This document shows positions 16,978-61,614 of a stretch of 64,000 bases of DNA, one piece after another (positions within the stretch are counted from its first letter, which is position 1; every line of letters starts with the position of its first letter). This DNA is from Trypanosoma brucei (taxonomy: Eukaryota): assembly GCA_000002445.1 (NCBI GenBank), contig CP000071.1, positions 992,001 to 1,056,000 of the forward strand, read 5' to 3'. The notes beneath the pieces are model-generated. The model had not been told where the DNA came from, did not search any database, and saw only the letters and a program-made list of their open reading frames with translations. The position numbers and the translations under genes are program-made.

Positions 16978-17598
16978 ATGCAGGAGAAGGAGGTGCAGCT
17001 GTATGGTGGAGCCATTACAAGCTCTTTCCCGGCGACTATGGTTGACGTAAGTGATATGCGACAGGTTCCTGACACACAGGAAGTGTACACAGAAGTAGAG
17101 ACAGGCATGTGTATTATCATAGAGCTTTTAGCGAGGGAGCATGAGGTTAGTAATGACAATTGCGGAAATTATTTTTTCATCGACCTTGCAAAGGCCAATG
17201 GCTGCAATACTGAAGGCTACAACCTTAAACCACAACATCAATTACACCCAACCGATTATCCCCTTGTGTCGCAACCACCCTCAGGGTCCGTTGCAGCTAG
17301 TGGCCGGTACTGCACATTTGGTTGTGTCATTAGCGGCCACCAACATATATCGAAATACACAAATGAAAAAGGAAAAGAAAATGATATTCTTGTGGTTATG
17401 TCGGTGTTACGTTTTGAACCACCCATATCAACGGATGTGCTAATCTCCATATCGGCACCTCAGTGGATTCATCCCGAGAGCAGTGAGGCTCGTGTCGTGC
17501 AGAAGTTGCGTAGTGAAGAAGAAGTGACAGCGGTAATGCGGCGTATTCTTCTTTCCTTCAACATAAGAGATTGGGGTCTTTTTGTACCGGAAGAATGA
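16978..17598 (+). CDS. MOG1: Ran GTPase-binding protein MOG1 (Ran guanine nucleotide release factor)
   Basis: N-terminal signature 'KEVQLYGGAITSSFPATMVDVSDMRQVPDTQEVY'. As I recall it, this closely matches yeast Mog1 'KEVELYGGAITTVVPPGFIDASTLREVPDTQEVY'. Length of ~205 aa is typical. Confidence 0.8.
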   Translation: MQEKEVQLYGGAITSSFPATMVDVSDMRQVPDTQEVYTEVETGMCIIIELLAREHEVSNDNCGNYFFIDLAKANGCNTEGYNLKPQHQLHPTDYPLVSQPPSGSVAASGRYCTFGCVISGHQHISKYTNEKGKENDILVVMSVLRFEPPISTDVLISISAPQWIHPESSEARVVQKLRSEEEVTAVMRRILLSFNIRDWGLFVPEE

Positions 17599-18208: not shown

Positions 18209-18937
18209 ATGCTTCGTAAAGTCACTAGCCCATACAAGGTGTCCATCCGCCGCACTGCTGCCTCAGTCACTGCTGCAGATTCAAAAAAGGCAATACTCCG
18301 CCTCATTCGCTTTGACCCGGAAACTAATAAACAGCGCGTGGAAAGTTATGAGTACGACAAACACCATGATTATATGGTGCTCGATCTTATCACCGCAGTG
18401 AAAGCTCATCAGGATCCCACACTGGCTTTTCGTGCCTCATGTTGCGAGGGCGTGTGCGGAAGTTGTGCCATGAACATCAACGGTGTGAACAGTCTTGCGT
18501 GCATTACATTTTCACAGCAAGTTACAACAGTGGGCCCGTTGCCTAACTTTCCAGTTATTAAAGACTTTGTTGTGGACCTCCGGCACTTCTTTCGTCAGTA
18601 CGCGTATATTCGACCCTTCGTACGTAACGTTAACCTCGACCGTAGCCGCCTTGATAACATCGTAGAACGTTATAAAACCATAACAAAGGTTATTCATGGC
18701 GTTCCTTCAGATGATGAGGCGCAACTTGCCCAATTGGAGTCGAAGAGCGGGGCGCAGACGGATGTGATGGCGCTTCTTCAGTTACTTGATGCAGTTTGTG
18801 AGTCTGGAAATGTAACGCATCTCATCCGCACGTTGGAGGCGCTGCAGGAGAGAGGCATGCAACTCGATCAGGGAAAGGTGAAGGCACTTATCGAGGAAAC
18901 GTTACAAAACTACAAGAAGCGGAAACTAGGCGCATGA
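18209..18937 (+). CDS. SDH2N: Succinate dehydrogenase iron-sulfur subunit, N-terminal half only (SDH2N; 2Fe-2S ferredoxin-like domain)
   Basis: Plant-type 2Fe-2S ligand pattern 'SCCEGVCGSCAMNINGVNSLAC' (C-x4-C-x2-C...C), exactly as in SDHB. The rest of the protein has no CxxCxxCxxxCP 4Fe-4S/3Fe-4S clusters. This is consistent with the split SDHB known from euglenozoans. Confidence 0.8.
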   Translation: MLRKVTSPYKVSIRRTAASVTAADSKKAILRLIRFDPETNKQRVESYEYDKHHDYMVLDLITAVKAHQDPTLAFRASCCEGVCGSCAMNINGVNSLACITFSQQVTTVGPLPNFPVIKDFVVDLRHFFRQYAYIRPFVRNVNLDRSRLDNIVERYKTITKVIHGVPSDDEAQLAQLESKSGAQTDVMALLQLLDAVCESGNVTHLIRTLEALQERGMQLDQGKVKALIEETLQNYKKRKLGA

Positions 18938-20209: not shown

Positions 20210-20992
20210 ATGGTGAAAATGCCGTCGACCCTATCTGATTTGTTTCCGTTAGCCAAGTGCTCGGTTGCAAGTGCTGTGGAACTCACGCTGCTCATTGGCG
20301 CAGTCGCTGCCTCCACGTATTTAGCTGTGGCGAATTCAGTCTGGAGAGTTTACTGCGGATTAACTTTGGTGTTGTTTGCTGTGTATTGCCTGCGGTTGTG
20401 GCGCTTACTTCCCGGTGAGAAAGAATATTTGGAAATGGAAGCACACAAACTGGCGGATCATATGATGGTGAAGCAGCGCGAGGCGACCGCTACGCAGCAA
20501 ACACTCGTAGGGCAGAGAGGACACGCAACAAATCCCGCACAAACCCCAGCACTTCAACACTCTCACTTTCAAGGTGTAAATCCCATATTAGGGTCTCATC
20601 AATTGCAGCAATTGGCGAGCTCTTTAGCACTTTCGCAGTCTCAGCAGTTCATGAGTTCTATGATGCTTCCGCACCATCAGCAACTTATGAGCTCTGTTGC
20701 TTTACCACCGCTTCAAATTTCCAACTCATTACCCATACCTTTACCATTGCAACAGCTTGCAAACTCCATGGCACTTTCCCAAATGCACCAACCACAGTTT
20801 CATGCGGGGAATCATATGGTAGCACCTCAACAACATCAACGGGAATTAATAACACCACGCATTACGGTTGCGTCTCCACTACCAACACCATCGGTGCTGA
20901 GACAATTCCCGCCGACGGCATTGCGTGAAAACGATGGAGAAGAGCCGCCGCAGAAGTGCCAGATGCCGTATGGTGATGGGCACCTCGGTTAA
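20210..20992 (+). CDS. Hypothetical protein. Two N-terminal hydrophobic helices, then a Gln/Ser/Leu-rich low-complexity tail with internal repeats.
   Basis: ATG-initiated 260-aa ORF. Helices 'VELTLLIGAVAASTYLAV' and 'LTLVLFAVYCLRLW'. Repeats 'LQQLASSLALSQSQQF' / 'LQQLANSMALSQMHQPQF'. Confidence 0.5.
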   Translation: MVKMPSTLSDLFPLAKCSVASAVELTLLIGAVAASTYLAVANSVWRVYCGLTLVLFAVYCLRLWRLLPGEKEYLEMEAHKLADHMMVKQREATATQQTLVGQRGHATNPAQTPALQHSHFQGVNPILGSHQLQQLASSLALSQSQQFMSSMMLPHHQQLMSSVALPPLQISNSLPIPLPLQQLANSMALSQMHQPQFHAGNHMVAPQQHQRELITPRITVASPLPTPSVLRQFPPTALRENDGEEPPQKCQMPYGDGHLG

Positions 20993-21873: not shown

Positions 21874-21992
21874 CGATAGACATACGTGCGCGTACGTACA
21901 TATATAGACAGACACAGAGAATATACATACATATATATATATATCTATATATATTTCAGTTATAAGTAGTGCAACCACTGCGCACTACCAAC

Positions 21993-22886
21993 ATGCAACA
22001 GAACATTCACTCTTTCACACCCACCAACGGGAAGGATCGCTGTAAGTTATGTCTCTCCTATTGCGGGCCCATTTATCTTGTTGTTGTTATTCTCTCTTTC
22101 CTTGGCGCCTATGCGGCATTCTTCATTGGGTTATGCTTGCGATATCCCACTTCATGGAAGTTGGCTGTTTGCATCTCATGTCTGTTCACCGGCGCTGTGT
22201 TGGCTGGCATTTTGATTTTTACCCTGCTTCGGGCGGTCTTCACGCCAGCTGGTTATGTCCCACAGTCGCCGTGGCAATATCCACCACGTTATATCGGTGA
22301 GTGTCCGGGGTTCGTTCCCCCGTCTGGTGAGGGTGTAGGTGAAAATCCCAATACGGTGCGGCAGTTGGATCGTCATAATCAACTGCGCTACTGCACTGCC
22401 TGCAAGCAATTCAAACCAGATAGGGCATACCACTGCGAATCGTGTGAGCGGTGCACATTTGACTTTGACCACCACTGCCCTGTACTCAACAATTGTATTG
22501 GACGTGGCAATTACAAGATGTTCGTTCTGTTTCTTTGCTACGTTCCCATAGTCGGTTGTGTTTTGGGTGGCCTGATGTTTGTGGGTTTCTTTGTAGTGGA
22601 TGAAGCGGAGCCGGCAGTTGCGTGGATGGTGTTCGCGATGATTATGATGATCTTCTGCGCCGTTATTGGTATATTTGGCTGTGTGCATTTGTGTTGGCTC
22701 TGTCGCGGAGAGTCCACCATGGGGCGCCACGTGAGTAGTTTTAACAAACAGCGGGGCCGAAGCAAAGAAGAGCGTGCACGAGAGCGGGAGGAACATTGCA
22801 ATGCCGTGTGTGGAGTGAGGCGAGTGTGGTGGCGTCTTGTCATGCCAGTCTTGCCCCTGCGGGAAGAGGCGGCTTCACTTGTTTGA
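21993..22886 (+). CDS. DHHC-type zinc-finger palmitoyl acyltransferase
   Basis: DHHC-CRD 'CTACKQFKPDRAYHCESCERCTFDFDHHCPVLNNCIGRGNYK' flanked by four hydrophobic helices. The track ORF starts at GTG 21969; first ATG at 21993. Confidence 0.85.
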   Translation: MQQNIHSFTPTNGKDRCKLCLSYCGPIYLVVVILSFLGAYAAFFIGLCLRYPTSWKLAVCISCLFTGAVLAGILIFTLLRAVFTPAGYVPQSPWQYPPRYIGECPGFVPPSGEGVGENPNTVRQLDRHNQLRYCTACKQFKPDRAYHCESCERCTFDFDHHCPVLNNCIGRGNYKMFVLFLCYVPIVGCVLGGLMFVGFFVVDEAEPAVAWMVFAMIMMIFCAVIGIFGCVHLCWLCRGESTMGRHVSSFNKQRGRSKEERAREREEHCNAVCGVRRVWWRLVMPVLPLREEAASLV

Positions 22887-24367
22887 GGCTTTTGTTGTTG
22901 TTGTTTTGTAGTGTTGTGACGCGACGTGGGAAGGATGGGGAATCCGAGTGGTAAGAAGCAAATACAAGGTTATATTTGTCATGTACAACTCTGTTTATTT
23001 AGCAGCGTTGCAAATATGAAACTGAGAACACGACGCCTGTTTTTTTTCGTATTATTGTTATTATCATTTCCATTCTGCCTCACTGCTATGTTTGTTTGTT
23101 CTTGTACATAAGCCTGTGTTATGAAAGTTTTCTGTAGGAAGGGGAGGTGCTGCACTTGGAAAAGGGAGTAGTTATTCCTTCCTCTCCTTTTCGTATTTGT
23201 CTCACTTGGCATATGGTCCCTCCACATCCACCCACACATTTCCTCCTTTCCTTCGGCGTACCTTTAGGGGGTCGTCTATGTGCAAATTTATTTCTTTTTT
23301 TATCGATTGCAATTCTAACCCCGGCACGCACATCATTTTTTTTCTTATTTTATTTTGTTCTTACTGTTTTTAGTGTTCTTGACCGAAACACTTCAACGCT
23401 ATTTGGTTTATTTGATGAACCTCCTTTATCATCTGTACTTCATCCATTACTTTCCTTCACTTGGCTTCCAATGAAAGAAACAAACGAATGCAGAAGAACG
23501 GGGATCATGTGGTCTCCTTTATGATGCTTTTGTTTCATTACACCTTTCGGATGCAACTCTGCAGTGGTTAAACAATTTATATTTCAACTGCTGCGTTGAA
23601 GGGAACGGAACCAGTAGAGATGTTAAATGGAGGAGAAGGTTTGGGGTGGGGGGAGGCGTCGCGTTTATTTCGGAACTGGAGAGTGCCATACGCAATTAAC
23701 AAAAAAAAGCAAACTAACAAACTGGTCAAAGAATTTGAGCGGAACGACTTCTTTTTGTTAAAATGGCAAATTTCAATGTGTGTAAACGTGCGTGTTCGGG
23801 CGTGTACTTATGTCTATGAGTGGCTAGAGGGAATCAGTGTGGAAAGACAAAGTACGAAGCTTCGCTTTCGTTTTGTTGTTGTTCTTCCTACCTCATCAAC
23901 TTCCTCCAAAAGTGGTTCCAGACGCGTTAAACATTTTTCACAGGTCTTTTAAACATTTCTCTCTTATCCCCCACTGTTCACTTATTATTATCCTCCCGTA
24001 CATACGTGTATGTATGTGTATTTGCATGTGTATTGCGCTGTGTTTAAATCTACTCAGAAAGTTCATTTATCGCTGCCACTATTCTCCTCCACTTTATTTC
24101 GTTGTTTATGTTATTATCTATCTCCCCCTTTTTAGGCCTTTGTTGTCTCTTTTCTGTTGTGGTTTTGCCGTTGCTGTTGTTGTTGTTTTCCACCGTTTTG
24201 ACCTTAGGGAGGAATCGCAAAGGTGTGGTCGAAAGTAAGGGGGAAAATACCAGAGGACCGAGGAGAGAGAACAGGGTGACAGCAAAATACAAATAAGAAA
24301 AGCTATTTTTTTTTTTTAAAGAGAGGGAGAAAGAAAGAAACAAGGAACTGGTGATATCAACAGAGGG

Positions 24368-27300
24368 ATGAAACAGAAGGAAACCGCCAGCGACATTAAC
24401 GGTGCCAGAAGCTTACAGGGAAGCGCAGGAACAGTTGCATCCCCCAGACCTCCCACCGTGTACAAAACGTATGGCGGTAGTTCCCATTTGCCACTAATAG
24501 GAAGGTTGCAACGGGCTGTGCGCCGTCCAGGTTCCCGCTCTAGATTAACGCTAACTACTTCGGGTAGTTCTGAAGAGCTAACGAACTTAAAACAGCTTTT
24601 GCAGACTCAAAAGGACCGGCTGTCACGACGCTGTCAAATGATAGACGACAGTTTGGAGGATTGCAGTGCTAACAGGGAAAATGGAACGGCAGGAATAGTG
24701 GAAGGGGGGGAGGAGGGAGGTAAAGAGGGAGTCACCTGCCCAGCGATCAGACGGCTAGCAGAACGGATGCTCGGCCACGTTAACCCCGAAACTAATGACT
24801 TGGAGGAGTATGAAGATGAAGAAGAAGAGGAGGACAGCGAAGTGCGTGCATTGGAAGACGATCTGTGCAGACGCGAGGCGAGGTTAAATATCATAAAAGA
24901 CAAGATGAAGCGCTTATGGGTGGAGAAGCAAATATCGCCGGCAGCTGCCGTTCCGCCTCCAGAGCCCACTGTGCTTGCTGCCACTACCGATCAGGAGGTG
25001 ATCGATGTGGCGGAAATGATGTACAAATTCGCCAGTGGGACCAGTAGGGACAATGAGAATGGTAAGGAAAAGATGGAGGGCTCCTCCAGCATTATTGTGG
25101 GTGACCAACAAGTATTTGACGATGGGATATCAGATGCCACAGCAATCTCCATTACAGATTCCCCTGCGACTGTTCGTCCTTCAGGCGCCATCAAAAGTGA
25201 GGAACGGGCATGCCTCGTACCTTTGCGTTCAAGCAGTCTCGGTCGACTGACAAGTGGTGCGAGGGTTTTTATGGATTTGCTTCCAAACATGCGGGATATT
25301 ATAGTGCTCTCTCCTGGTGAGGTCGGTGTAGCCCGCAGGGGAGATATACTTTCAGAAAACCACATTCTCAAGGTCGATTCCCAGGAGGCGCTGCGCTCAC
25401 GCAAGGGGGCAATGGGTATCATCTCCGGTGCACCGTACTTCCGCATGGTCCCCAAACTTAATGTGGCAGGAGTAGGGCAACCGCGCGCCAGTGCCGTTCG
25501 AACGATCGTGAACGAGTTGCGGCGTGTAATGGATGGATTGGTGGTATGGGTAAACCTTCGTGAGGAGCCACTCGTTTACATCAACAATGAGGCTCATATT
25601 GTGCGGCAACGGAGTGACCCCACAACCCCTATTATTATTCCACATGTCACAGGAAAAAGTATTGCCCTGATAGATGATAAACTGAAAAAAGAGGTAATCA
25701 GGGAGGCAAGCGAAAACAGTGGAAACGTCAGCGTGCACATGGAAGGAAAAGATGGCCACATGGAGGACCAATGGGAGAGCGTTGAAAAGGATCAGGTCTT
25801 CACCTTAGAGGAAGTATTCCGCCCACTGAGAACGAACATCGTATACCACCGGCTGCCCATAACACAAAATGTTGGGCCACAGCCAGGAGACTTCGATTTC
25901 GTCTTCGACTTGTGTTCAGATGACCCGAGAAAAATGATCATATTCAACTGTCAGACGGGACGTGGGAAGACCAGTGCCATGATGACCATTGCCAGTATCG
26001 TACGTTTTTACCAGCTGTTTGCTCACGATGCGGTGCTAGACGCTAGTTTGCTTCGCACTGAAGGTCGCTGTTTCAGTTTCCGAACCATCAAAACGATCGT
26101 ATCACTTATTCCAAATGGCAAACTCCATGAGCGACGGCTCCTCGTTCTTCTTGATCTTTCGGACAAGGTTTACTCCATCGCTGATCATATCAACAACGCC
26201 TTCACTTCCGGTACCACACCCGCCGAAGAGGCTATTATGCATCTTAAGCAGTACGCCTACTTCCTTGTGTTTTCATATTACTGCGAGCAACGCATATGGA
26301 GTTTCAGTACCAAACAACCGTTCAGTCAGTGGTTGCTTGGTAATAATGAGATCAAACTGCTCCTGGAAAGGATAGAAACAATGGAGGAGGAATTCAAAGA
26401 GGAACGTATCGCCGCACCGGTAAGCGAGGCTGGTGACTTTGACACGGATCCAGTACGGAAGCGGCGAGGTACTGTGCTCAGCGCCAACCGCATCTTATGC
26501 AGTTTTCCTTTTTTTGCCAGTGGAAAAGAGGAAACGATCGGATCGCTCCGTCAACTGGCACCTGGTGTACCTATATTTACATGTGGTCGCTTGACGGAGG
26601 AGGGACGGCAGTGCGTAGTGAAGGATATGCGCCATTACTTTCCAGGAAAGATTATGTGGCTTAGTCTTCGTGCGGAGCCGATGGTGTTCATCAATGAAAT
26701 GGGTTATACGCTGGTGGATTACGACGTGACCACATATGGGAAGGGTGGTGAAGGGATAACCATGCACACATCGCTTCACGCCATTGAGCAGATGGAAGAA
26801 CGCCTTCGCCGCGATGTCCTTTTGGAGGCCCAGGAACATAAGGGTTACATTTTGTTGCATAATTTTGATGAAACAGGAAAGCGAAAGGCGATGCAAATCA
26901 AAGCGTGCTCTGTTCGGACCCCCAGATCGATCATGACCGACTTCGCCGCTACGTACGATGTGAGTTATTTTCGCATTCCCATCCCACTTTCTGGTGAAAT
27001 GTTACCAAGTGACGTTGATCCGCTTCTGGAGCACTTGAGTAAGAACACGAAGGACACCACAGTTTTTATAATCAACGATACGCAGGGTTCGGTGCGTACA
27101 ACTGTAGCCCTTAACATACTGACGATGTATCGTGTCTCCCGCACTTGTAACCTCCGCTCGATGAGCAACCCAGCAAGGATTGCTGCGGCCCTGCGCACAG
27201 GTAACAGTGATGTTGTGCTACCGCAGGTGGACATAATTGCTTACCAGGGTAGAGTCACTGATAGTGCAACCAGGAATTATAAAGAATTGCAGGTGGCATC

Positions 27301-28924
27301 AACCATCTGTCAAATGCTGAGGGCCGGGTCTCTACTTTGTGTAACAGATGCACTCATTGATGTTGGTGGATGCGGCAAACGGTGGAACATCGTTCACACG
27401 ATTCACCACTACGCGAACGCTATTACTGCTGGTACCATTGAGAGGACAAAAGGCATTCGTGAGGCTGTAGCAATGGTGCGCGTGTATCTATTTGTACTTC
27501 TCAGTACAATATACATTGATGCACAAGGGGATTATGACGCCAGAGAACCATTCAATTTATGGCTGGAGCGGCGTGTTGAGGTAGCAAATATCCTTAGTGG
27601 TCTGGAGCAACGTGCAGAAAAGGCCTTCAAGTACATCACGCCAAGTAGTGTGGGAATACCAAGTGTCGTACATCGCCGCGGTGACGTGCTTACTGCGAAC
27701 TACGCTTTGAAGGCGGACCACTTTCCGGGATGCCAAAAGAAAGGAATCCGCCCGGAGGTGTGCGGTGCGCCTAACTTCCGCAAAGTGAGGGATGTCAATG
27801 TGTACGGTGTTGCAATTCCTACAATCTTGGGTATTCGCAACATCCTCTCCCTTCTTGGTGCCAGTTTTGAGTCCCTTGAAACATATGAAGGAGAACAAAA
27901 TGATATGGATCTTCATTTGGGATTTGCCGCGCCCCGGCTATTTGATCCGCGCTTCCAAACAGAAACTTTATCCAAGCCTCTTCGAGGACATGTTGTTTGG
28001 GTCAATCTCCGTGAGGAACCGATTCTGTACGTTGGTGATAAGCCATTCGTCCTCCGCAATCTCGAAACGCCGTACGTAAATGTGGAGCTTACGGGTATTG
28101 CCGCTGATGAGGTGGAGCGTGTTGAGCGACAATTACGGCAGGATGTGCTGAAGGAAGCGGAAGAAAACGAGGGATTGTTCCTTATCCACGATGAAGAAAC
28201 ACCAGGTGAACTAGTTGGCGTATGCAAGCCGGTCACAACAGAAATGGTCAAAACGTTACGGGATGTTTATGACGATTTTGTCTCGAACGGTTGCCGTGTT
28301 ACGTTGTTACGCCTGCCAGTGACTGACGAACAAAGTCCTACGGAAGGGAACTTTGATGCCCTCGTCGAGGCGCTTCTGCCGCACATTACGGCACACATGG
28401 ACCGTCGCGAGACGTTGTCATTTGTGTTTAACTGCCAGATGGGGCGGGGCCGAACCACAACCGGAATGGTGGTTTGTTGTTTACTCATTGGTTTGGTAAT
28501 GCCCGAGTACTACAAGGAGTTAGACAGCATTTATGACCCTCTTTACAAGGAGGAAGATTCCAAACTGGCATGTGGTGAGTACAGATGTATCAGCGACCTG
28601 AAGCGGACACTCACAGGCGGTCGCGAGGCAAAACACCGTGTTGATTTAGTAATTGAAGCGTGTTCAACGATGCAGAACCTTCGTACTGCCATTGAATTCT
28701 TTGCTCTTCAGGTGCAGTCACCTGATGTAACGGAGGAGCAGCGCGGTCGGGCTCACCACCACGGTGTGCATTACCTGCGACGCTATTTCAATCTTATTGC
28801 CTTCGCTGCATATTTAGAGGAGGAGTACGACGCTATGAAAAAGCGAGTGCGGTGCTCCTTTTCTCGCTGGCTGGCTCAGCGCCGTGACGTCACCACACTG
28901 TGTGACTCTGCCGCATTAAAATAA
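24368..28924 (+). CDS. Paladin-like protein with two tandem PTP-like (CX5R) phosphatase domains
   Basis: Two P-loop motifs 'FNCQTGRGKTSAMM' and 'FNCQMGRGRTTTGMVV' (CxxGxxR[ST]). Each is preceded by a duplicated upstream module ('GAPYFRMV...LVVWVNLREEPLVYI' and 'GAPNFRKV...HVVWVNLREEPILYV'). This is the tandem arrangement seen in paladin / PTP-like phytase-domain proteins. Confidence 0.75.
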   Translation: MKQKETASDINGARSLQGSAGTVASPRPPTVYKTYGGSSHLPLIGRLQRAVRRPGSRSRLTLTTSGSSEELTNLKQLLQTQKDRLSRRCQMIDDSLEDCSANRENGTAGIVEGGEEGGKEGVTCPAIRRLAERMLGHVNPETNDLEEYEDEEEEEDSEVRALEDDLCRREARLNIIKDKMKRLWVEKQISPAAAVPPPEPTVLAATTDQEVIDVAEMMYKFASGTSRDNENGKEKMEGSSSIIVGDQQVFDDGISDATAISITDSPATVRPSGAIKSEERACLVPLRSSSLGRLTSGARVFMDLLPNMRDIIVLSPGEVGVARRGDILSENHILKVDSQEALRSRKGAMGIISGAPYFRMVPKLNVAGVGQPRASAVRTIVNELRRVMDGLVVWVNLREEPLVYINNEAHIVRQRSDPTTPIIIPHVTGKSIALIDDKLKKEVIREASENSGNVSVHMEGKDGHMEDQWESVEKDQVFTLEEVFRPLRTNIVYHRLPITQNVGPQPGDFDFVFDLCSDDPRKMIIFNCQTGRGKTSAMMTIASIVRFYQLFAHDAVLDASLLRTEGRCFSFRTIKTIVSLIPNGKLHERRLLVLLDLSDKVYSIADHINNAFTSGTTPAEEAIMHLKQYAYFLVFSYYCEQRIWSFSTKQPFSQWLLGNNEIKLLLERIETMEEEFKEERIAAPVSEAGDFDTDPVRKRRGTVLSANRILCSFPFFASGKEETIGSLRQLAPGVPIFTCGRLTEEGRQCVVKDMRHYFPGKIMWLSLRAEPMVFINEMGYTLVDYDVTTYGKGGEGITMHTSLHAIEQMEERLRRDVLLEAQEHKGYILLHNFDETGKRKAMQIKACSVRTPRSIMTDFAATYDVSYFRIPIPLSGEMLPSDVDPLLEHLSKNTKDTTVFIINDTQGSVRTTVALNILTMYRVSRTCNLRSMSNPARIAAALRTGNSDVVLPQVDIIAYQGRVTDSATRNYKELQVASTICQMLRAGSLLCVTDALIDVGGCGKRWNIVHTIHHYANAITAGTIERTKGIREAVAMVRVYLFVLLSTIYIDAQGDYDAREPFNLWLERRVEVANILSGLEQRAEKAFKYITPSSVGIPSVVHRRGDVLTANYALKADHFPGCQKKGIRPEVCGAPNFRKVRDVNVYGVAIPTILGIRNILSLLGASFESLETYEGEQNDMDLHLGFAAPRLFDPRFQTETLSKPLRGHVVWVNLREEPILYVGDKPFVLRNLETPYVNVELTGIAADEVERVERQLRQDVLKEAEENEGLFLIHDEETPGELVGVCKPVTTEMVKTLRDVYDDFVSNGCRVTLLRLPVTDEQSPTEGNFDALVEALLPHITAHMDRRETLSFVFNCQMGRGRTTTGMVVCCLLIGLVMPEYYKELDSIYDPLYKEEDSKLACGEYRCISDLKRTLTGGREAKHRVDLVIEACSTMQNLRTAIEFFALQVQSPDVTEEQRGRAHHHGVHYLRRYFNLIAFAAYLEEEYDAMKKRVRCSFSRWLAQRRDVTTLCDSAALK

Positions 28925-29752
28925 ACATTAGAGGGGGGAAGTGCAGTGATTTTTTTTTTTCACTGTTTGTTGTTGTTGTTACCTTCGGTGACGTTGTGTT
29001 ATCGATATTTGTACGTTTAGGGTGTCACGCAATGGAATAACGGAAAAATAAACAAGATAAATTTCCAGAGATTTAAAGGGAGAAAAAGCGGCTACTAACA
29101 AAAGGGGGAGGTGGGAGCGGATGCTAATGGAAGGATGTGTACTGCCGGACTAAATGTACAAAATAAAGATTTTGAAAACTAAAGGAAAAAACAAAATTAA
29201 AAGGAAATTAAAAGAAAAGAAATAGCACGAAGGGTGGGATGAGTTTTGTTGCGAAGGGGATGAGAAGAATGGAAATCGCTCGGTGTTTGCGTGTGCGGAT
29301 GTGCTTGTTTCTTTCCCCCTTTTGCAGAAGGCGGTTTTGTTTTGTTTCTTTTTTTCTTTTTCTTTTCTTCTTTAACTTATCTCTTCACTTTTTGTTTTTT
29401 CTTAAATTAGGTTCACTCAAGGCACACGGGTAACGGGTTTGGTTAATAATTGGAGCCATGAGGCATCGATTTCTCTCTTTTTTTTTTATATATATGTTCG
29501 CGTTCTTGTTTGTCTGTCTGTTTGTTTGTTTGTTTGTTTGTTCGTTTTTTGTTATTCGTGAAATCTAATAGGAAGGTGGAGCGACACCAAAACGAAAACG
29601 CCCTCGTAAGGGGACGGAAGAATGGGTGTGGTGACTGTTGTCGAGACATTAAAGCAACCGGAAATCAAAAAAAAAATAATAATAAAAGAAAGAGGAAAAA
29701 ATAATGACTAAGAAAATAAAACAAACCGATGGGGAAAATAGCAAGTGATATG

Positions 29753-29785
<33 letters not shown>

Positions 29786-30262
29786 TTGTTTGAAAAAAAA
29801 AAAAGAAAAAACTTATTTTGGAGCCAACGCAATCATTACGGTGTTGAAATTTAGTCCTGTGATTATGTTTTCCTCCCTCTTTCTGTCACTTTATCTCATT
29901 TCGTTAATTTTCTTTCTTTTGCTTTTTTTTTTTTAGTCATACGCATGCATACATATTTTCATATACTTACAAATATTTGTTTGTATTCGTATTGTTTGTG
30001 TCTCACTGATCGAATGGATTTTCTGCACGTGTTTAATATCCGGTCCAACCGATGCGATTTTTCTGCCCCAAATGTAAATTTTTCTTTTCACTTTTTTCGG
30101 AGAGGCTCAAGAAAAAAAAAAGCCGATCCAAATGTATTGTTTTTTCCCCCATTCTTTTTGTCTTCTCTTCCCCTATAACTCAAATGCACGTATGTATATA
30201 TAAATAAATATATTTATTTTTTTCTTTTTATACGTATGTACATCTTGTATTATATTAGCAAA

Positions 30263-30413
30263 CATACACACACACACACACATCAGGTAAGCGGAGAGTT
30301 TCCCTTAAATAAATATATATATATATAATAAATAAATAAATAAATTTATTTATTTATTTATGCATTCGTTTTTGTTGTTTTCTTTTTGCGTGTGTGTGTG
30401 TGTGTGTGTGTGT
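30263..30413. repeat. Composite quasi-palindromic microsatellite: (CA)8, then a 36-bp perfect AT palindrome (AAAT)4.5/(ATTT)4.5 at 30325..30360, then (TG)11
   Basis: Read directly. The palindrome is centred at 30342/30343. The (CA)n tract on the left and its complement (TG)n on the right sit at roughly symmetric distances. Confidence 0.85.
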
Positions 30414-31635
30414 CAGGAGTGGTTTTTGTTTGCTTAGTTGCTCCTTGCTTATACCTATTATATTTACTTCTAAAAGACCGCCATACTTTACACTTTTTTC
30501 TTTTTTTAAAAAAAAATTGTCTCCCACCCCGCAACCCACACAAAGAGTAAAAGAAAAAATAAATAAATAGAAACACCCAGTTCCTTCTTGGTTTAATTTT
30601 TTATTTTTCATTTTACTTTTGGTTTATTGCTTACATTTCTTCACGGTCCTTACTTAAAGCCGAGCCCGCTTTTCTCGTCCTTCCAATTCTCTTCACCACT
30701 GCCTCTGTCGCGTTTTTTTTCCTTTTATTTATGGTGACGTGAGGGAAAGAAACGAAAATAGCGTGACGGGGATTTTTTTTTCCCCTTTTCAAATTTGATT
30801 ATTCAATACGCCAACTCTTATCAAACGAAAATTCATTATTTTCCTCCACTGTGCCTCCATCAAACGAGTTTGTTGTTGTGTGTTGTTTTTGTTTTTGTTT
30901 TTGTTGCCATTTGTTGTATCTATCTACATTAATTCACTTAAGTTTCTGTTCGTGTTGCTGTTGGGGGTGTCGATGTCGTTGATTATTATTTTTATTGTTC
31001 ATTACACTCGGCGTGTTTCCTTTTCCTTTTGCTTCTCACCGTTTTTTTTTTATTTCTCCTTCCGGTTTGATGCGTGGTTGCCGAGGCGTATGTGAAATAA
31101 GTGCGTCTTGTATTTGTATTTTGTGTTGCGGTCCATTTATTAACCGCATAACCATCTCAGCTGCAACACTTGTTTTCGGTGTTTGTTTGTTTGATTGTTT
31201 AGTTTCCCTGTATGGCTTCTTCTTGTGTGTTCACGCTTAGAAAATGAGAAAAAAAGATGAGGGCAAAACTTTTAGAAAAAAAGCGAAGAGGGTTGCCGAT
31301 ATGGTTGGGATGAGGAGCGAATAGAAGAAGAGAGTTGAATCTATTACCTTTTAAGGAAGCAGAAGATTGAAAAGTTGAGTAACCAAACAAAATCTGTTTA
31401 GAGTGCCGTCGTTACTTCCGTTTTCTCCCTTCTTCTTACTTTTATGGAAAGCTGTTGTAACACCACGCGTTTTCAAGTAACTACCTGCATTTTATGATTC
31501 TTCGCAGCACCTTACTTCACTCATTCTTTAATCTATTGAATCATATTTTGCACATATTTGCGTATTTAATGTATATTTATATGGAGCCAGAGGCATTGTT
31601 GTTATAAGGCTGGGAACAGGAAAGAAAGTGCTCAC

Positions 31636-32247
31636 ATGCACGAGTTGGAGTTGCCATTCCAGTGGGATGACGGCACGTGTATATCTCCTTTCGTAGCCAC
31701 CAGTAATAACACACTTGTAGCGCTCTCCAAGTGGCTCCATGACGTCGTACTGCAGCACGGGGAGAATAATTCGCTGCGGCTCACGGATTTGGGTTGTGGC
31801 GATGGCGCTGCTTTACTGCAACTCTGTTGTGAACTTTTTTTACTTCAAACTAAGTCCTGTCCTCTGCATCTTATCGCTGTTGGAGTAGATATTGACGAAT
31901 CGCTCATAACCGATGCAAGGCGGGCTGCAGCGGATGCCGTAGCAAAAGTTCCATCCCCCCATCAACTGCAACATGACTTCGCGGTGGCTGACTTGCGAGG
32001 AGTCGCTGTGGACGAATATTTTCCCCTTAGTGAAACGGATTCCCATGTGCTCTTTTTATATTTACTTCCAGAGGCGCTTAATATTATCCGTGATAAATTG
32101 TTGGAGGTCATTCAGCGCGTCCGGTTTGTTGTATCGAACCGTTGGGATATACCTTTTTTTTCCAATTGGAAAATTGGGCAGCTGCATACGTTAAACGTGT
32201 ACTCCTACCGAGGAGAAAATATTAACTTGTCAAAGTGCAGTAGGTGA
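31636..32247 (+). CDS. Putative class I SAM-dependent methyltransferase (203 aa)
   Basis: Motif I 'LRLTDLGCGDGAALLQL' followed by an acidic residue at the end of beta-2 ('AVGVDIDE'), typical of the Rossmann-fold MTase motif I / post-I. Confidence 0.55.
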   Translation: MHELELPFQWDDGTCISPFVATSNNTLVALSKWLHDVVLQHGENNSLRLTDLGCGDGAALLQLCCELFLLQTKSCPLHLIAVGVDIDESLITDARRAAADAVAKVPSPHQLQHDFAVADLRGVAVDEYFPLSETDSHVLFLYLLPEALNIIRDKLLEVIQRVRFVVSNRWDIPFFSNWKIGQLHTLNVYSYRGENINLSKCSR

Positions 32248-32802: not shown

Positions 32803-34308
32803 ATGGATTTCCTTCAGTTTTGCTCATCGGAGCGGTACGTTAGCCGTGTGCCCGTTCACAATCTTTCCTTCCGCATCACACTGTGGCGCGCTCCTCTTGT
32901 GGGAGAGCGACAACTGGAGCAATTGTGTACTTTAACAGTGCCATGGGGTGGGAAAGTATTTTCCCCTGCGGAGAGGTTGCAAAAGATACGCACCGGCGTC
33001 GCCATGACCACTCCAGACAGTAACGCAAGTACACGTGAGATACACACCGTTGTGCCGGGTCGGAGAGAAACCGATGGGGATGCAGCAGCTGCTGCCGATG
33101 ACGTTGAGAAACTGCGGGAGGATATCGCTAAGTTCTCATGTACTTTCTTTACTCGGCCGCCTAGTGAGGATTACGTCAGTGAGGCGAAGGAGAACTTACT
33201 TGTGGACCCACCGCAAGCAGCAAGTCCACATGTCCAAATAATCTTACGTGAGCATCAAAACCAGCACCAGGAAGGCAACAGAATGTACTTCATGTGGGCT
33301 TCTGGGGAAATTTTGGGGCCAAGTGAGGGGAAGTTTGATGATGCACAGTGGAAGGGACAAGAACGTGTCATATGTACAATAACGGCGGAGCGAAATAGCT
33401 TGTGTTTTACAGCCAAGCCTTCTCTCAACAAAACTCACACGCTGTTGGTGGACTCTTTGTATGTGTATTCCTTTGTTATTACTCCACTGCAGGCCTGTGA
33501 GCCACGCCCCGACGAGCCAACATCAACCGATTTCGTAGAGCAAATACACGAAATGGTCGCACGTATAAAGGACGACTTGAAATCGCCACACTTCGACAGG
33601 CGAGGTATTCTTCACCAGATACTTTTGCAACAGCTGCACACAGCTCCTTCGGATGAGCTGCCGCCGCGCCTGGACAGTCCATCGTCCCCCTGCTTTCCCC
33701 AGTCTGCGATACGTGACAGTCGTGTGCGATATTACTTGTTTGGAGTTGTTGAGCGCTGCACTTGTGTTGCCGCAGACACACTCTACCTTCATTGTCAATG
33801 GCAGCGTGGGGGCGATAACGAAGATGAGGACGACAAAAGAAACTTATGGAATGAGGGAACACTGGATGGTTTCACGACTCAGCTCTCCTTTGCTAGCAGC
33901 ATGATTATGGATCAGTTTATCCCCGTGTCCATGCATACCTTCAACACCCCATTTGATTACCATTTCGATGGATGGGGCCCTTCACCACTGCGCCTCCTCA
34001 TCACGGCTTATGATGATGAGGGATTGTCAGTTGGCGGACCACAGTCACCAATCGGTTACGCTGCGGTAACGGTACCACATTTCTTGCCAGGTTGCCATCC
34101 GCTTCGAGCCCCGCTGTGGCGCCCGCGGCCAACAGGCCGTGAGTTTGTGCGCTCAGCACTGATGGGTGGCGGGCCGGCACTTGTTGATGTGCGTGACACC
34201 GCGCCCCGTGGTGGAGGCGGAATTTCGGTAAAATGTGGCCTCGTTTCGGAGCCGACCGGGACGGTGGAGCTGCGTGTGACGGTGTTTCATCAAGTGGGAC
34301 CACTCTAG
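32803..34308 (+). CDS. B9-domain protein (MKS1-like), a ciliary/flagellar transition-zone component
   Basis: The C-terminal region 'TAYDDEGLSVGGPQSPIGYAAVTVPHFLPGCHPLRAPLWRPRPTGREF...GGISVKCGLVSEPTGTVELRVTVF' parallels the B9 domain as I recall it from B9D1 ('[28 protein letters not shown]...P.F.P...'). At ~500 aa it fits MKS1 rather than B9D1/B9D2. An alternative ATG is at 33004. Confidence 0.65.
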   Translation: MDFLQFCSSERYVSRVPVHNLSFRITLWRAPLVGERQLEQLCTLTVPWGGKVFSPAERLQKIRTGVAMTTPDSNASTREIHTVVPGRRETDGDAAAAADDVEKLREDIAKFSCTFFTRPPSEDYVSEAKENLLVDPPQAASPHVQIILREHQNQHQEGNRMYFMWASGEILGPSEGKFDDAQWKGQERVICTITAERNSLCFTAKPSLNKTHTLLVDSLYVYSFVITPLQACEPRPDEPTSTDFVEQIHEMVARIKDDLKSPHFDRRGILHQILLQQLHTAPSDELPPRLDSPSSPCFPQSAIRDSRVRYYLFGVVERCTCVAADTLYLHCQWQRGGDNEDEDDKRNLWNEGTLDGFTTQLSFASSMIMDQFIPVSMHTFNTPFDYHFDGWGPSPLRLLITAYDDEGLSVGGPQSPIGYAAVTVPHFLPGCHPLRAPLWRPRPTGREFVRSALMGGGPALVDVRDTAPRGGGGISVKCGLVSEPTGTVELRVTVFHQVGPL

Positions 34309-36213: not shown

Positions 36214-36722
36214 CCAGCTATCAATATGTCAAACCACTTGAAGGAAGGAAAGGTCGAATGCAAACATGTTGACGCGTGCACATGTAGCTTGTAACTGAGT
36301 GACGGCACATGTAGTACCTCCACCCTCCGTACTGGACACACATGTAAATACGGCTCCGTGCAATTGGATACTTCAAATGAACTTTGACGTGTCTGCAGTA
36401 GATTTTAGCTGTTGCCTCTGTTATTTTCTTTTGGGTTTCATGATGGTTGTGGGAGTGTGTTGATGCCCTTCATCCTTCATTTCGAATTTCACCAATGATC
36501 GCTAGCACAACCGTGTGTGCTATAATTGAACCTAAGGTTTGAACGTTGCGTGCACGACAAATACATAAAATATCATTTCGCTGGATATTCCTTCCTTCCT
36601 TCTAAATATAACACTGATATCACGTACTCGCTGTGTTTGGGTGTGGGTCATTTGTTCACTCTTTTTTTTTCATTTTCAGTGCACAACTCAAAAGGATATT
36701 TTCACTCGTTGGCAATTTGACC

Positions 36723-37610
36723 ATGGACGGACGGAACGGCTCAAAGAGGGCCCGAAGTGAGCCCGCTAATGGTCCCAACCAAAGCAACGTGGGAACTTCA
36801 GGTGTTGAGGAGCCGCACGTTGAGGAGGTGCCGGCTCGTGATCCGGAACTGGAACGGCAACTGGACCGCTTGAACATTGACGACAATCTAAAGGAATCCC
36901 TGCGCGGCTTGTCGCCTTCCACTCGGGGAGAAGTAATGAATGATATCATCCGAAGTGAAACTATCGAGAGGGCCAGCAGTTTGATGGAGCAAGCCAACTT
37001 ATTGTCTTTAATTGAACTTAGGCGGTTACCGGAGTTAATGGAGGAGGGAATGTCTTCCCAACATTACAGGGCAGACGTTGATGACGATAGTGAGCTACAT
37101 GAGTTTGGTCAAGCTCTGGAAGACATGCAGGCCGATGGTCAGTCGCCGTCTCCGCAGCGTGGGCGCCCTCATGGGATGCTCCACACGCCCGGCCCACTTA
37201 TTCTGGAGTTCCTAAGGGCGTTCGCTGCTGGAACCCATGCTGCTTTTGCCGATGCGGCGGGTGTATCGGAGCACCTCAACATACTTTCCGAGCTGGCAGC
37301 ACAGCGCGCCATGGGGGTGACGGAAGACGTTGATAACATGTCATATGAGGAGTTGCTGGAGTTAGAAGATAAAATCGGGTATGTCAGTAGAGGTGTAAAG
37401 CCAGAAGATGTGCAGAAATGTGTGAAGGATGTTCCTACGCCTCATGAAGGTAACTGTGTCGTGTGTCAGTGTGAATGGTCGGATAACGCAGAAACGGCGC
37501 CCGCTGTGGTTGAGTTAAACCGGTGCAAACATGTGTTCCATCGCACCTGCATCAGGGAATGGCTCCTCAAAAACAAGAAGTGCCCCGTATGCACGCAAGA
37601 GGTTGTTTGA
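36723..37610 (+). CDS. RING-H2 zinc-finger protein (putative E3 ubiquitin ligase)
   Basis: C-terminal RING-H2 'CVVCQCEWSDNAE...LNRCKHVFHRTCIREWLLKNKKCPVC' (C3H2C3 spacing). Start set at ATG 36723 (MDGRNGSKRARSE). Confidence 0.8.
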   Translation: MDGRNGSKRARSEPANGPNQSNVGTSGVEEPHVEEVPARDPELERQLDRLNIDDNLKESLRGLSPSTRGEVMNDIIRSETIERASSLMEQANLLSLIELRRLPELMEEGMSSQHYRADVDDDSELHEFGQALEDMQADGQSPSPQRGRPHGMLHTPGPLILEFLRAFAAGTHAAFADAAGVSEHLNILSELAAQRAMGVTEDVDNMSYEELLELEDKIGYVSRGVKPEDVQKCVKDVPTPHEGNCVVCQCEWSDNAETAPAVVELNRCKHVFHRTCIREWLLKNKKCPVCTQEVV

Positions 37611-61539: not shown

Positions 61540-61610
61540 GGATTCATAGCTCAGTGGTAGAGCATTCGGCTGCAGTCCGAATGGTCCCCGGTTCAAACCC
61601 GGGTGGGTCC
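61540..61610 (+). tRNA. tRNA-Cys (anticodon GCA), identical copy
   Basis: Same 71-nt sequence as the minus-strand copy, followed by discriminator T and a T4 tract. Confidence 0.9.
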
Positions 61611-61614
61611 TTAG

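What the first reader, a model, noticed from the sequence alone, without database searches (positions are those of the whole stretch)
24368..28924. 1518-aa paladin-like protein with two apparently intact PTP-like catalytic loops
An internal tandem duplication gives two modules. Each has an N-terminal 'GAP[YN]FR[MK]V ... VVWVNLREEP[LI][VL]Y[IV]' segment and a C-terminal CX5R P-loop: CQTGRGKT at ~aa 530 and CQMGRGRT at ~aa 1355. Both P-loops keep the catalytic Cys and Arg, so both may be active. Paladin-type enzymes in animals act on phosphoinositides. The 2.7-kb ORF-free interval downstream (28925..31635) suggests a long regulated 3' UTR.
Basis: partly seen in the sequence, partly recalled or inferred. 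Interest (0 to 1): 0.5.

Follow-up and report, generated by a model that had tools for sequence, protein, structure and literature searches.

The report
Three-module paladin phosphatase, one intact site
This is the Trypanosoma brucei copy of paladin, a widespread but poorly understood phosphatase; it has three repeated phosphatase-like modules, not two, and only the last keeps the complete catalytic machinery, so it is an ordinary, uncharacterised family member.

Summary
The 1518-aa ORF at 24368..28924 (+) is real. It is 100% identical to T. brucei TREU927 XP_847172.1 / Q57YX2 ("hypothetical protein, conserved"). The details of that reading are wrong in three ways.

1. There are three ~350-390-aa modules, not two: M1 aa 347-672, M2 aa 736-1082, M3 aa 1126-1518. 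They are only 22-26% identical to one another.
2. The first P-loop, CQTGRGKT, is C-X5-K, not C-X5-R, and M1 has Gln500 where the general-acid Asp should be.
3. The overlooked middle module has Asp904 in place of the nucleophilic Cys.

Only M3 (Asp1320, Cys1356, Arg1362) has the full catalytic triad, and it is invariant in 33/33 kinetoplastid sequences. An AlphaFold model (pLDDT 84.5) matches only bacterial PTP-like inositol phosphatases.

The most likely function is a single-site Cys-based phosphatase for inositol-phosphate headgroups, with two conserved non-canonical modules acting as binding or regulatory units. The substrate is inferred, not shown.

The 2.7-kb downstream gap is not unusual for this window and is not conserved in length. 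It contains eight polypyrimidine tracts, so a long 3' UTR can be neither shown nor excluded. Interest is low to moderate.

The parts
24368..28924 (+). Complete intronless ORF of 1518 aa plus stop. This is T. brucei paladin-family protein XP_847172.1 / UniProt Q57YX2.
   Evidence: ORF and translation; 100% identity to TREU927 protein, accessions
24070..24205 (+). Upstream polypyrimidine-rich tract followed by AG dinucleotides. It is a probable trans-splice acceptor region, which would give a 5' UTR of roughly 160-230 nt. This is inferred from sequence only.
   Evidence: sequence read directly; established knowledge of kinetoplastid trans-splicing signals
24368..25327 (+). Kinetoplastid-specific N-terminal extension (aa 1-320). 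It is poorly conserved (mean 23% identity), acidic and Ser-rich, and mostly predicted disordered. Its length is 272-971 aa in other kinetoplastids.
   Evidence: conservation, lengths; AF2: 170 of 345 residues have pLDDT<50
24563..24670 (+). Conserved helix 1 of the N-terminal extension (aa 66-101; motif EL..LK.LL..Q..RL).
   Evidence: helix 66-101, pLDDT ~95; conserved island aa 69-85; L71 invariant
24803..24934 (+). Conserved helix 2 of the N-terminal extension (aa 146-189; motif SEV..LE.DL.RR..RL).
   Evidence: helix 146-189, pLDDT ~97; L162 and R172 invariant
24989..25069 (+). Helix 3 of the N-terminal extension (aa 208-234). It follows the conserved PP.P.V motif (P200 invariant).
   Evidence: helix 208-234, pLDDT 83-88 over aa 201-220, falling to 66 and 46 over aa 221-240
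25406..26383 (+). Module M1 (aa 347-672; Pfam PF14566 aa 395-546). Cys is retained, but the general acid is missing and the motif Arg is Lys, so this site is non-canonical.
25865..25867 (+). M1 Gln500 at the general-acid (Asp) position.
   Evidence: equivalence to D177 of Bd1204 / D223 of PhyAsr through
25949..25969 (+). M1 P-loop C528-Q-T-G-R-G-K534, which is C-X5-K. The Lys codon is AAG.
26573..27613 (+). Module M2 (aa 736-1082; Pfam PF14566 aa 766-921). It has no GAPNFR motif, no general acid and Cys->Asp.
26987..26989 (+). M2 Leu874 at the general-acid position.
27077..27097 (+). M2 P-loop D904-T-Q-G-S-V-R910, which is D-X5-R. Asp replaces the nucleophilic Cys and the Arg is kept.
   Evidence: 33/33 kinetoplastid M2 modules
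27743..28921 (+). Module M3 (aa 1126-1518; Pfam PF14566 aa 1212-1373). This is the fully canonical, most conserved module and the predicted catalytic site.
28325..28327 (+). M3 Asp1320, the general acid, in the motif PVTDEQSP.
   Evidence: PMC3981807
28433..28453 (+). M3 P-loop C1356-Q-M-G-R1360-G-R1362, a canonical C-X5-R with an extra basic residue at X4, as in PTEN and Bd1204.
   Evidence: for the K210/K128 analogy
28925..31635 (+). Downstream ORF-free spacer of 2711 bp. It is T-rich and low-complexity, with eight polypyrimidine tracts and simple repeats. It holds no conserved element, no Rfam RNA and no hidden conserved ORF. It presumably contains the 3' UTR of this gene and the 5' UTR of the next, but the boundaries are unknown.

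Best explanation
The gene encodes the T. brucei orthologue of paladin. The protein has a largely disordered N-terminal extension carrying two or three conserved helices, followed by three ancient PTP-like (PTPlike_phytase fold) modules.

Only the C-terminal module M3 has the full Cys-based phosphatase machinery: nucleophile Cys1356, phosphate-clamping Arg1362 and general acid Asp1320. M3 is therefore the single classical active site. It would attack a phosphomonoester through a phosphocysteine intermediate.

Three observations point to a poly-phosphorylated inositol headgroup as substrate. The closest folds are all inositol phosphatases. The P-loop carries an additional basic residue (Arg1360). 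Animal paladin acts on PI(4,5)P2. I lean towards a membrane phosphoinositide, with soluble inositol phosphates as the alternative.

M1 (Cys528 present, but Gln500 and Lys534) and M2 (Asp904 for Cys, Arg910 kept) are under clear purifying selection but lack canonical catalytic sets. They most likely act as phosphate- or ligand-binding, positioning or regulatory modules for M3. This would be analogous to the D1-active / D2-pseudo arrangement of receptor PTPs.

Shown here: the architecture, the residue states, their conservation and the fold. Inferred: catalytic competence of M3, the substrate class, and the roles of M1, M2 and the N-terminus.
For: - Three PF14566 domains are present.
- A module HMM matches all three modules nearly full length.
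- The catalytic-column table shows M3 as LPVTDEQSP + FNCQMGRGRTT in every kinetoplastid and identical to plant M1/M2 and fungal M3. The census gives M3 D/C/R in 33/33, M2 x/D/R in 33/33, and M1 x/C/R in 20 plus x/C/K in 13.
- A profile search against PDB aligns Asp1320 and Cys1356 in register with D177 and C206 of Bd1204 and with the TDH/HCX5R of 3f41. C206S and D177N abolish Bd1204 activity (PMC3981807). The mechanistic roles of Cys, Arg258 and Asp223 in PhyAsr are given in PMC10982552.
- The AF2 model of aa 320-1518 has pLDDT 84.5 and pTM 0.78, and each P-loop lies between a strand and a helix.
- All 35 Foldseek PDB hits at E<=1e-3 (the weakest 1.4e-6) are bacterial PTP-like myo-inositol phosphatases.
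- Mean identity to T. brucei across 28 kinetoplastids is 0.69 for M3, 0.61 for M1 and 0.49 for M2, against 0.23 for the N-terminal extension. M1 and M2 are therefore constrained, not decaying.
- Human paladin has PI(4,5)P2 phosphatase activity (PMC7857541). In rice PALD only one of the two Cys-bearing domains is genetically required (PMC8299082).
- Known roles of pseudophosphatase domains are summarised in PMC13573052.
Against: - No enzymatic, localisation or genetic data for any kinetoplastid paladin were found.
- Paladin biochemistry is itself contested. Animal paladin was long called a pseudophosphatase. The rice group could not detect pNPP activity. The human assay used immunoprecipitates and a quadruple Cys mutant as control.
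- The residue before the nucleophile is Asn, not the His of classical HCX5R.
- M1 keeps its Cys in 33/33 sequences and keeps Arg in Leishmaniinae and T. vivax, which is hard to explain if the site were purely structural.
- Lack of a general acid does not always mean inactivity in this superfamily (Siw14/PFA-DSP).
- I could not inspect model coordinates, so pocket geometry, electrostatics and inter-module contacts were not examined.
Confidence: 0.55

Rival explanations
1. Two-site enzyme. M3 and M1 are both catalytic. M1 would work without a classical general acid on a substrate with a good leaving group, such as the beta-phosphate of an inositol pyrophosphate or another phosphoanhydride. The two sites would have different specificities, as in the tandem bacterial enzyme PhyAmm.
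For: - M1 Cys528 is conserved in 33/33 kinetoplastid sequences, and its P-loop glycines and Thr/Ser are conserved.
- Arg is retained at the motif position in 20 of 33 M1 modules.
- Siw14/PFA-DSP enzymes lack the WPD Asp yet hydrolyse PP-InsPs (PMC13573052).
- The M. multacida tandem enzyme has two active sites with different specificity (PMC10982552).
Against: - In T. brucei itself the motif Arg is Lys534 (AAG). Mutating the equivalent Arg220 in Siw14 destroys activity.
- K/R interchange within Trypanosoma suggests this position is not under catalytic-grade constraint.
- No Asp, Glu or His substitute in the M1 acid loop is conserved; the position is Q, Y, R or L.
- D177N abolishes activity in the homologous Bd1204.
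Confidence: 0.15
2. The whole protein is a non-catalytic scaffold or 'antiphosphatase', as was long proposed for animal paladin. All three modules would bind phospho-ligands without hydrolysing them.
For: - Paladin was classified as a pseudophosphatase in several reviews, and no protein phosphatase activity was found (PMC7857541 introduction).
- Rice PALD showed no pNPP activity.
- Asn replaces the pKa-lowering His before the Cys.
Against: - The acid loop and an 11-residue P-loop in M3 are invariant across all sampled kinetoplastids and identical in plants and fungi. This is the signature of a working active site.
- The rice phenotype needs the PTP-A cysteine.
- Human paladin dephosphorylated PI(4,5)P2 in a Cys-dependent way.
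Confidence: 0.1
3. M3 is active, but on phosphoproteins (pTyr or dual specificity) and not on inositol headgroups.
For: - Weak Pfam hits to DSP-type PTP families lie just below threshold (PTP-SAK 25.4 bits, Tc-R-P 26.2 bits, cut-off 27).
- Rice PALD binds the XA21 kinase domain.
Against: - Human paladin showed no activity on pTyr or pSer/pThr peptides.
- Classical PTPs, PTEN and DUSP23 appear only at Foldseek E>=0.097, against 1e-6 to 4.5e-16 for inositol phosphatases.
- The extra basic residue in the P-loop is typical of inositide phosphatases.
Confidence: 0.08

Closest known systems
Plant paladin (rice PALD LOC_Os03g38970; Arabidopsis and other plant 'paladin', ~1250 aa)
   Same: - It has three tandem PF14566 modules in one polypeptide.
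- The canonical module has the identical acid loop and P-loop (P[VI]TDE.SP, FNCQMGRGRTT).
- Full-length similarity is E=2.4e-165 over 79% of the query.
- One module is degenerate, and only one Cys is genetically required (PMC8299082).
   Different: - The order of states differs. Plants are active-active-dead (M3 = SHTGFGG). Kinetoplastids are Cys/no-acid, then Asp-for-Cys, then active.
- Identity is only 24-25%.
- Plants lack the long N-terminal extension.
- One-to-one module orthology is not supported by bootstrap.
Animal paladin (PALD1 / KIAA1274), PTP class I subclass IV
   Same: It belongs to the same Pfam family, carries a CxxGxGR-type P-loop without the preceding His, and is a reported phosphoinositide (PI(4,5)P2) phosphatase (PMC7857541; PMC8299082).
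   Different: - Animal paladin has two PTP modules, both with the signature motif, and is ~860 aa.
- No animal sequence was retrieved here, so there is no residue-level comparison.
- The endothelial/VEGFR2 biology has no counterpart in a trypanosome.
Bacterial PTP-like myo-inositol phosphatases (PhyAsr 1u24, PhyAmm 3f41, LppA 4tvv, Bd1204 4nx8)
   Same: - The fold is shared (Foldseek E down to 4.5e-16, TM up to 0.72 normalised to the target).
- The profile hits them (E=1.2e-8 and 4.3e-8).
- The Asp/Cys/Arg register is the same.
- PhyAmm is also a tandem repeat with non-equivalent sites.
   Different: - Identity is only 12-18%.
- The bacterial enzymes have HCX5R and a 'DH' acid loop, and are one- or two-module bacterial proteins of 260-630 residues.
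- In the profile search against PDB, the ~140-aa C-terminal helical part of each paladin module (profile positions beyond ~285) was not aligned to these chains; I did not compare it structurally.
- Their phytase function (phosphate scavenging or virulence) is unlikely here.
Receptor-type PTP tandem domains (active D1 + pseudophosphatase D2, e.g. LAR, CD45, PTPRU)
   Same: The logic is shared: a catalytic PTP-fold domain is fused to conserved but catalytically compromised PTP-fold domains that regulate or bind (PMC7320164 abstract; PMC8299082 discussion).
   Different: - It is a different PTP subfamily, with only marginal fold matches (E~0.1).
- Here the active module is C-terminal and there are two non-canonical modules.
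- This is an analogy of mechanism, not membership.

Membership tests
Paladin family (Cys-based PTP class I, subclass IV) | Two or more tandem PTPlike_phytase (PF14566) modules in one polypeptide | tested here: met
   Three domains were found, with a whole-protein score of 392 bits (E=2.5e-118). Run separately they score 152, 96 and 158 bits against a cut-off of 27.
Paladin family (Cys-based PTP class I, subclass IV) | Signature P-loop CxxGxGR(T) without the classical preceding His | tested here: met
   M3 has N-C1356-QMGRG-R1362-T. M1 has CQTGRGK (Arg->Lys) and M2 has DTQGSVR (Cys->Asp), so one of three modules meets the feature.
Paladin family (Cys-based PTP class I, subclass IV) | Full-length homology to proteins established as paladin | tested here: met
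   Plant proteins named paladin match at E 2.4e-165 to 5.0e-134 over 76-79% of the query. Rice PALD is published as the plant homologue of human PALD1.
Paladin family (Cys-based PTP class I, subclass IV) | Direct similarity to animal PALD1 | not tested
   No animal sequence appeared among the listed hits. The AlphaFold DB library was unavailable. The link rests on the shared Pfam family and the literature.
Paladin family (Cys-based PTP class I, subclass IV) | Cys-dependent phosphoinositide phosphatase activity | not testable with these tools
   This needs enzymology. Only the human protein has been assayed.
Bacterial PTP-like inositol polyphosphatases (cysteine phytases, PTPLP) | PTPLP fold (PTP core plus phytase-type subdomain) | tested here: met
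   All 35 significant Foldseek PDB hits are PTPLPs. The profile also hits them in PDB.
Bacterial PTP-like inositol polyphosphatases (cysteine phytases, PTPLP) | HCX5R(S/T) P-loop and Asp-His general-acid loop | tested here: not met
   M3 has the Cys, Arg and Asp, but Asn precedes the Cys and Glu follows the Asp (TDEQ). M1 and M2 lack the Asp altogether.
Bacterial PTP-like inositol polyphosphatases (cysteine phytases, PTPLP) | InsP6-degrading activity | not testable with these tools
   Human paladin did not hydrolyse InsP4 or InsP6. Nothing is known for kinetoplastids.
Pseudophosphatase domains (applied to M1 and M2 only) | PTP fold retained with substitution of at least one essential catalytic residue | tested here: met
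   M1 has D->Q500 and R->K534. M2 has C->D904 and no acid (L874). Both are folded with high pLDDT in the model.
Pseudophosphatase domains (applied to M1 and M2 only) | Demonstrated lack of catalysis | not testable with these tools
   This is inferred from D177N and C206S in Bd1204. The caveat is the acid-less Siw14/PFA-DSP enzymes.

The most novel reading that the evidence does not exclude
The two 'defective' modules are not dead but use different chemistry or act as sensors. M2's strictly conserved D-X5-R site occurs in 33/33 kinetoplastid M2 modules and also in fungal modules. It would be an oxidation-proof phosphate or inositide reader, or even an Asp-nucleophile site. M1's Cys-without-acid site would act on phosphoanhydrides such as inositol pyrophosphates, or serve as a redox sensor. 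The protein would then be a three-site reader/eraser machine for inositol-phosphate signalling in a lineage that lacks a classical PTEN orthologue.
Probability: 0.12. Interest if true: 0.55.

Novelty: new member of a known kind. Interest (0 to 1): 0.25.

Why it matters
Paladin is the sole member of its PTP subclass, and its biochemistry is still disputed in animals and plants. The kinetoplastid orthologues give a natural 'mutant series' in one polypeptide: a canonical site, a Cys-only site with R/K variation between species, and an Asp-for-Cys site. That series could help establish which residues this family really needs.

For trypanosome biology it adds a candidate inositide phosphatase. It does not appear, by the names paladin or phytase, in the main text of the 2007 TriTryp phosphatome paper or a 2017 Leishmania phosphatase review; their supplementary gene lists were not checked. 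Inositol phosphate and phosphoinositide signalling are reported to influence VSG expression-site control and life-stage development in T. brucei (my own knowledge, not checked here).

None of this is surprising to a specialist. The domain content is already visible in public annotation.

Tried and rejected
1. A regex motif scan of homologues was leaky, so I replaced it with an iterated module HMM.
2. A single NJ tree suggested kinetoplastid M1/M2/M3 pair with fungal M1/M2/M3, implying an ancient shared triplication. My first bootstrap test used wrong clade definitions. The corrected 200-replicate bootstrap gives only 0%, 20% and 35% support, so I do not claim module orthology. The shared Cys->Asp may be homology or convergence.
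3. Literature searches for 'paladin' plus Trypanosoma returned only author names, L. Paladin of Pfam and Paladino. Domain-name and pathway searches found no kinetoplastid paladin study.
4. I looked for published activity of the PhyAsr R258K and D223N mutants (PDB 2b4o, 2b4p). The paper is not in the library. I used Bd1204 mutagenesis and a review instead.
6. An exact-sequence look-up of the T. brucei locus found nothing on record, so I used orthologous loci instead.
7. I tested for a hidden gene or RNA in the 2.7-kb spacer. Rfam found nothing there. blastn and tblastx against four orthologous spacers gave only simple-repeat hits. TRF found only short low-complexity repeats. The bacterial promoter/terminator scan was at chance level and is irrelevant to a eukaryote.
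8. Functional linkage to neighbouring genes is rejected. They are unrelated (POLQ-like helicase, Mog1, Fe-S protein, DHHC, B9, RING), as expected for a polycistronic unit.
9. The database names 'Inositol hexakisphosphate' and 'metal ion binding protein' are rejected as functional evidence. 'Inositol hexakisphosphate' is the same string as the Pfam description line of PF14566. The 'metal ion binding protein' name appears to be inherited plant annotation (my inference).

Full report
**What is there.** The window has all 21 of its non-overlapping ORFs of at least 200 aa on the + strand; the two further ORFs in that list lie inside larger + strand ORFs. They have no introns and are separated by spacers of 0.1-2.8 kb. 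This is the layout of a kinetoplastid polycistronic unit. The ORF at 24368..28924 (+) starts with ATG and encodes 1518 aa. Its product is 100% identical to a Trypanosoma brucei brucei TREU927 protein annotated 'hypothetical protein, conserved', accessions XP_847172.1 and Q57YX2, on a 2.48-Mb contig. A polypyrimidine tract followed by AG lies ~160-230 nt upstream, as expected for a trans-splice acceptor (inference).

**Architecture.** Pfam finds PTPlike_phytase (PF14566) three times, not twice. The whole-protein E-value is 2.5e-118. Run on separate segments, the domains lie at aa 395-546 (152 bits), 766-921 (96 bits) and 1212-1373 (158 bits). I iterated a ~390-position module HMM on 43 homologues. 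It matches aa 347-672 (M1), 736-1082 (M2) and 1126-1518 (M3) almost end to end. The repeating unit is therefore the PTP-like core plus a C-terminal helical region. The modules are only 22-26% identical to each other. Each forms its own 100%-bootstrap clade across kinetoplastids. The repeat is an ancient triplication, not a recent duplication.

**N-terminal extension.** Ahead of the modules lies a ~320-aa extension. It is poorly conserved, with mean identity 0.23 against 0.49-0.69 for the modules. Its length ranges from 272 to 971 aa in other kinetoplastids. AlphaFold2 predicts it as mostly low-confidence, with 170 of 345 residues below pLDDT 50. The exceptions are helices at aa 66-101 and 146-189 (pLDDT ~95-97) and a third at aa 208-234 whose confidence falls from 83-88 to below 70 towards its C-terminal end. 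The first two coincide with two of the three conserved sequence islands, and the third begins within the last island.

**Catalytic residues.** I aligned every module to the HMM and read off the general-acid and P-loop columns.

| Module | General-acid position | Nucleophile position | Motif Arg position |
|---|---|---|---|
| M1 | Gln500 | Cys528 | Lys534 |
| M2 | Leu874 | Asp904 | Arg910 |
| M3 | Asp1320 | Cys1356 | Arg1362 |

- M3 reads LPVTD(1320)EQSP and FNC(1356)QMGRGR(1362)TT. This is a complete Asp/Cys/Arg set.
- M1 reads LPITQ(500)NVGP and FNC(528)QTGRGK(534)TS. Cys is present, the acid is Gln, and the CX5R arginine position is Lys. The Lys codon is AAG.
- M2 reads IPIPL(874)SGEM and IND(904)TQGSVR(910)TT. 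Asp replaces the nucleophile, Arg is kept, and there is no acid. M2 also lacks the GAPNFR motif.

That explains the error.

**Conservation of these states.** Across 166 collected proteins, kinetoplastid M3 is D/C/R in 33/33 and M2 is x/D/R in 33/33. M1 is x/C/R in 20 and x/C/K in 13. The Lys state is confined to Trypanosoma species and was never seen in non-kinetoplastid modules. T. vivax (AGA), Leishmaniinae (CGC in L. donovani) and the deepest-branching sequence have Arg.

**Homology and fold.** A profile of canonical modules hits solved bacterial PTP-like inositol phosphatases: 3f41 at E=1.2e-8, 4nx8 at 4.3e-8, and also 4wu3, 4tvv and 1u24. The 'TD' acid and the CX5R loop align in register. 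The AF2 model of aa 320-1518 is confident, with mean pLDDT 84.5 and pTM 0.78. Each P-loop sits between a beta-strand and an alpha-helix. With Foldseek against PDB, all 35 hits at E<=1e-3 (the weakest is 1.4e-6) are PTP-like myo-inositol phosphatases. Classical PTPs, PTEN and DUSP23 appear only at E of about 0.1. No solved structure annotated as paladin appeared among the listed hits of either search.

**Mechanistic grounding from the literature.**
- In Bd1204 (4nx8), C206S and D177N abolish activity, and D177 is the residue aligned to Asp1320 (PMC3981807).
- In PhyAsr, Cys252 is the nucleophile, Arg258 binds the phosphate and Asp223 is the general acid (PMC10982552).
- Bd1204 K210 and PTEN K128 are basic P-loop residues thought to contact additional substrate phosphates. 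By P-loop position (X4 of CX5R), M3 Arg1360 corresponds to them (my comparison).
- Human paladin dephosphorylates PI(4,5)P2, but not inositol phosphates or phosphopeptides, in an immunoprecipitate assay (PMC7857541).
- Rice PALD has three PTP-like domains, of which only the PTP-A cysteine is required genetically. The authors could not detect pNPP activity (PMC8299082).

**Interpretation.** The best-supported reading is a paladin with one classical active site (M3) acting on an inositol-phosphate headgroup. Two conserved non-canonical modules would serve as ligand-binding or regulatory units. An N-terminal helical/disordered region would provide interactions or localisation. I give this 0.55. 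Family membership is near certain. 'M3 is the only canonical site' is strongly supported by sequence. The substrate class and the roles of M1 and M2 are inference.

**Main rival (0.15).** M1 may also be catalytic. Its Cys is invariant, and Cys-based enzymes acting on phosphoanhydrides (Siw14/PFA-DSP) lack the canonical WPD-loop Asp (PMC13573052). In T. brucei, however, the Arg is also replaced, and in Siw14 mutation of that Arg destroys activity. A fully non-catalytic scaffold (0.10) is hard to reconcile with the invariance of the M3 site. A protein phosphatase (0.08) fits the fold matches and the human data poorly.

**Evolution.**
- Plants and a haptophyte have the order canonical-canonical-dead.
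- Kinetoplastids have Cys-only, then Asp-for-Cys, then canonical.
- The three fungal proteins also have Asp-for-Cys in the middle module and a canonical M3, but their M1 varies: Cys-only in two and Asp-for-Cys in the third (P0043).
- A first NJ tree paired kinetoplastid and fungal modules one-to-one.
- The corrected 200-replicate bootstrap gives only 0%, 20% and 35% support for those pairings. All canonical modules cluster at 84.5%, and kinetoplastid M1+M2 cluster at 76%.
- It is therefore unresolved whether the D-X5-R module is ancestral or convergent.
- The family is very broad. It includes plants, green algae, oomycetes, fungi, labyrinthulids and single-module bacterial proteins.

**The downstream interval.** The 2711-bp gap is real, but three other gaps in this window are 2.3-2.8 kb. 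Synteny is conserved (DHHC, paladin, a ~200-aa gene, B9 protein). The 203-aa downstream ORF is orthologous across trypanosomes at 50-52% identity. The spacer length is not conserved: 3.8 kb in T. vivax, 1.3 kb in T. theileri, 1.6 kb in L. donovani and 1.0 kb in T. cruzi. The spacer contains no Rfam RNA and no sequence conserved with the other species beyond simple repeats. It has eight polypyrimidine tracts that could each direct trans-splicing-coupled polyadenylation. A long regulated 3' UTR is possible, but it can be neither inferred nor excluded from the DNA alone.

**Novelty and verdict.** I found no publication on a kinetoplastid paladin. The main text of the 2007 TriTryp phosphatome paper and of a 2017 Leishmania phosphatase review does not mention paladin or phytase. 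I did not check their supplementary gene lists. The domain content is nevertheless already visible in public annotation, where the Pfam hits are precomputed and some orthologues are named 'Paladin'. This is a new, uncharacterised member of a known kind. The corrected picture has three modules and one intact site, plus a natural C-X5-K site and a D-X5-R site. That is modestly interesting to phosphatase specialists. Interest is 0.25.

Noticed in passing
window 61326-61397 (-) and 61540-61611 (+): Two tRNA-Cys(GCA) genes lie in divergent, head-to-head orientation 142 nt apart, with identical Rfam scores (64.7 bits). They sit downstream of the last long + strand ORF (54956-56728), where GC skew changes sign. 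This may mark the end of the polycistronic unit.
   Followed up: partly
window 1-56728: All 21 non-overlapping ORFs of at least 200 aa are on the + strand, so this looks like a single polycistronic transcription unit of T. brucei. The genes near the paladin gene that I scanned are functionally unrelated: a POLQ-like helicase at 11838-15011, Mog1 at 16978-17598, a 2Fe-2S protein at 18209-18937, DHHC at 21969-22886, a B9 protein at 32803-34308 and a RING protein at 36633-37610.
   Followed up: partly
window 31636-32247 (+); L001 16248-16850; L003 14068-14688; L005 13523-14119: The 203-aa ORF just downstream has no Pfam hit in T. brucei but is conserved at 50-52% identity in T. vivax, T. theileri and T. 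cruzi. The T. vivax orthologue carries weak methyltransferase (PF13847) hits.
   Followed up: partly
L004 1-6469 (L. donovani), L005 5141-7425 (T. cruzi) vs window 21969-22886: The copy number of the DHHC palmitoyltransferase gene upstream of the paladin gene varies. It is one in T. brucei, T. vivax and T. theileri, two in T. cruzi, and three in L. donovani with much larger products (491 and 634 aa).
   Followed up: no
database names of P0001-P0025: Orthologues are named 'Inositol hexakisphosphate' or 'metal ion binding protein'. The first is the same string as the Pfam PF14566 description line, so it looks like a propagated label. I infer the second is inherited plant annotation. Neither name is evidence of function.
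   Followed up: yes
P0027, P0028, P0029: Three kinetoplastid-type orthologues from unnamed sequencing-run assemblies are 2123-2180 aa long. Their N-terminal extensions are 911-971 aa, three times that of T. brucei, so the extension is highly expandable.
   Followed up: no
P0160, P0162: Single-module bacterial proteins of ~490 aa from Eremiobacterota and Vulcanimicrobiota match the T. brucei M3 module at 32-33% identity over 97% of its length (E ~1e-46). That is far closer than the characterised bacterial PTP-like phytases. It may indicate gene transfer or a bacterial origin of the paladin module.
   Followed up: no
window 20210-20992 (+): This 260-aa ORF has no Pfam hit, and a ~251-aa gene is called at the syntenic position in T. 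vivax (L001/L002 4918-5673).
   Followed up: no
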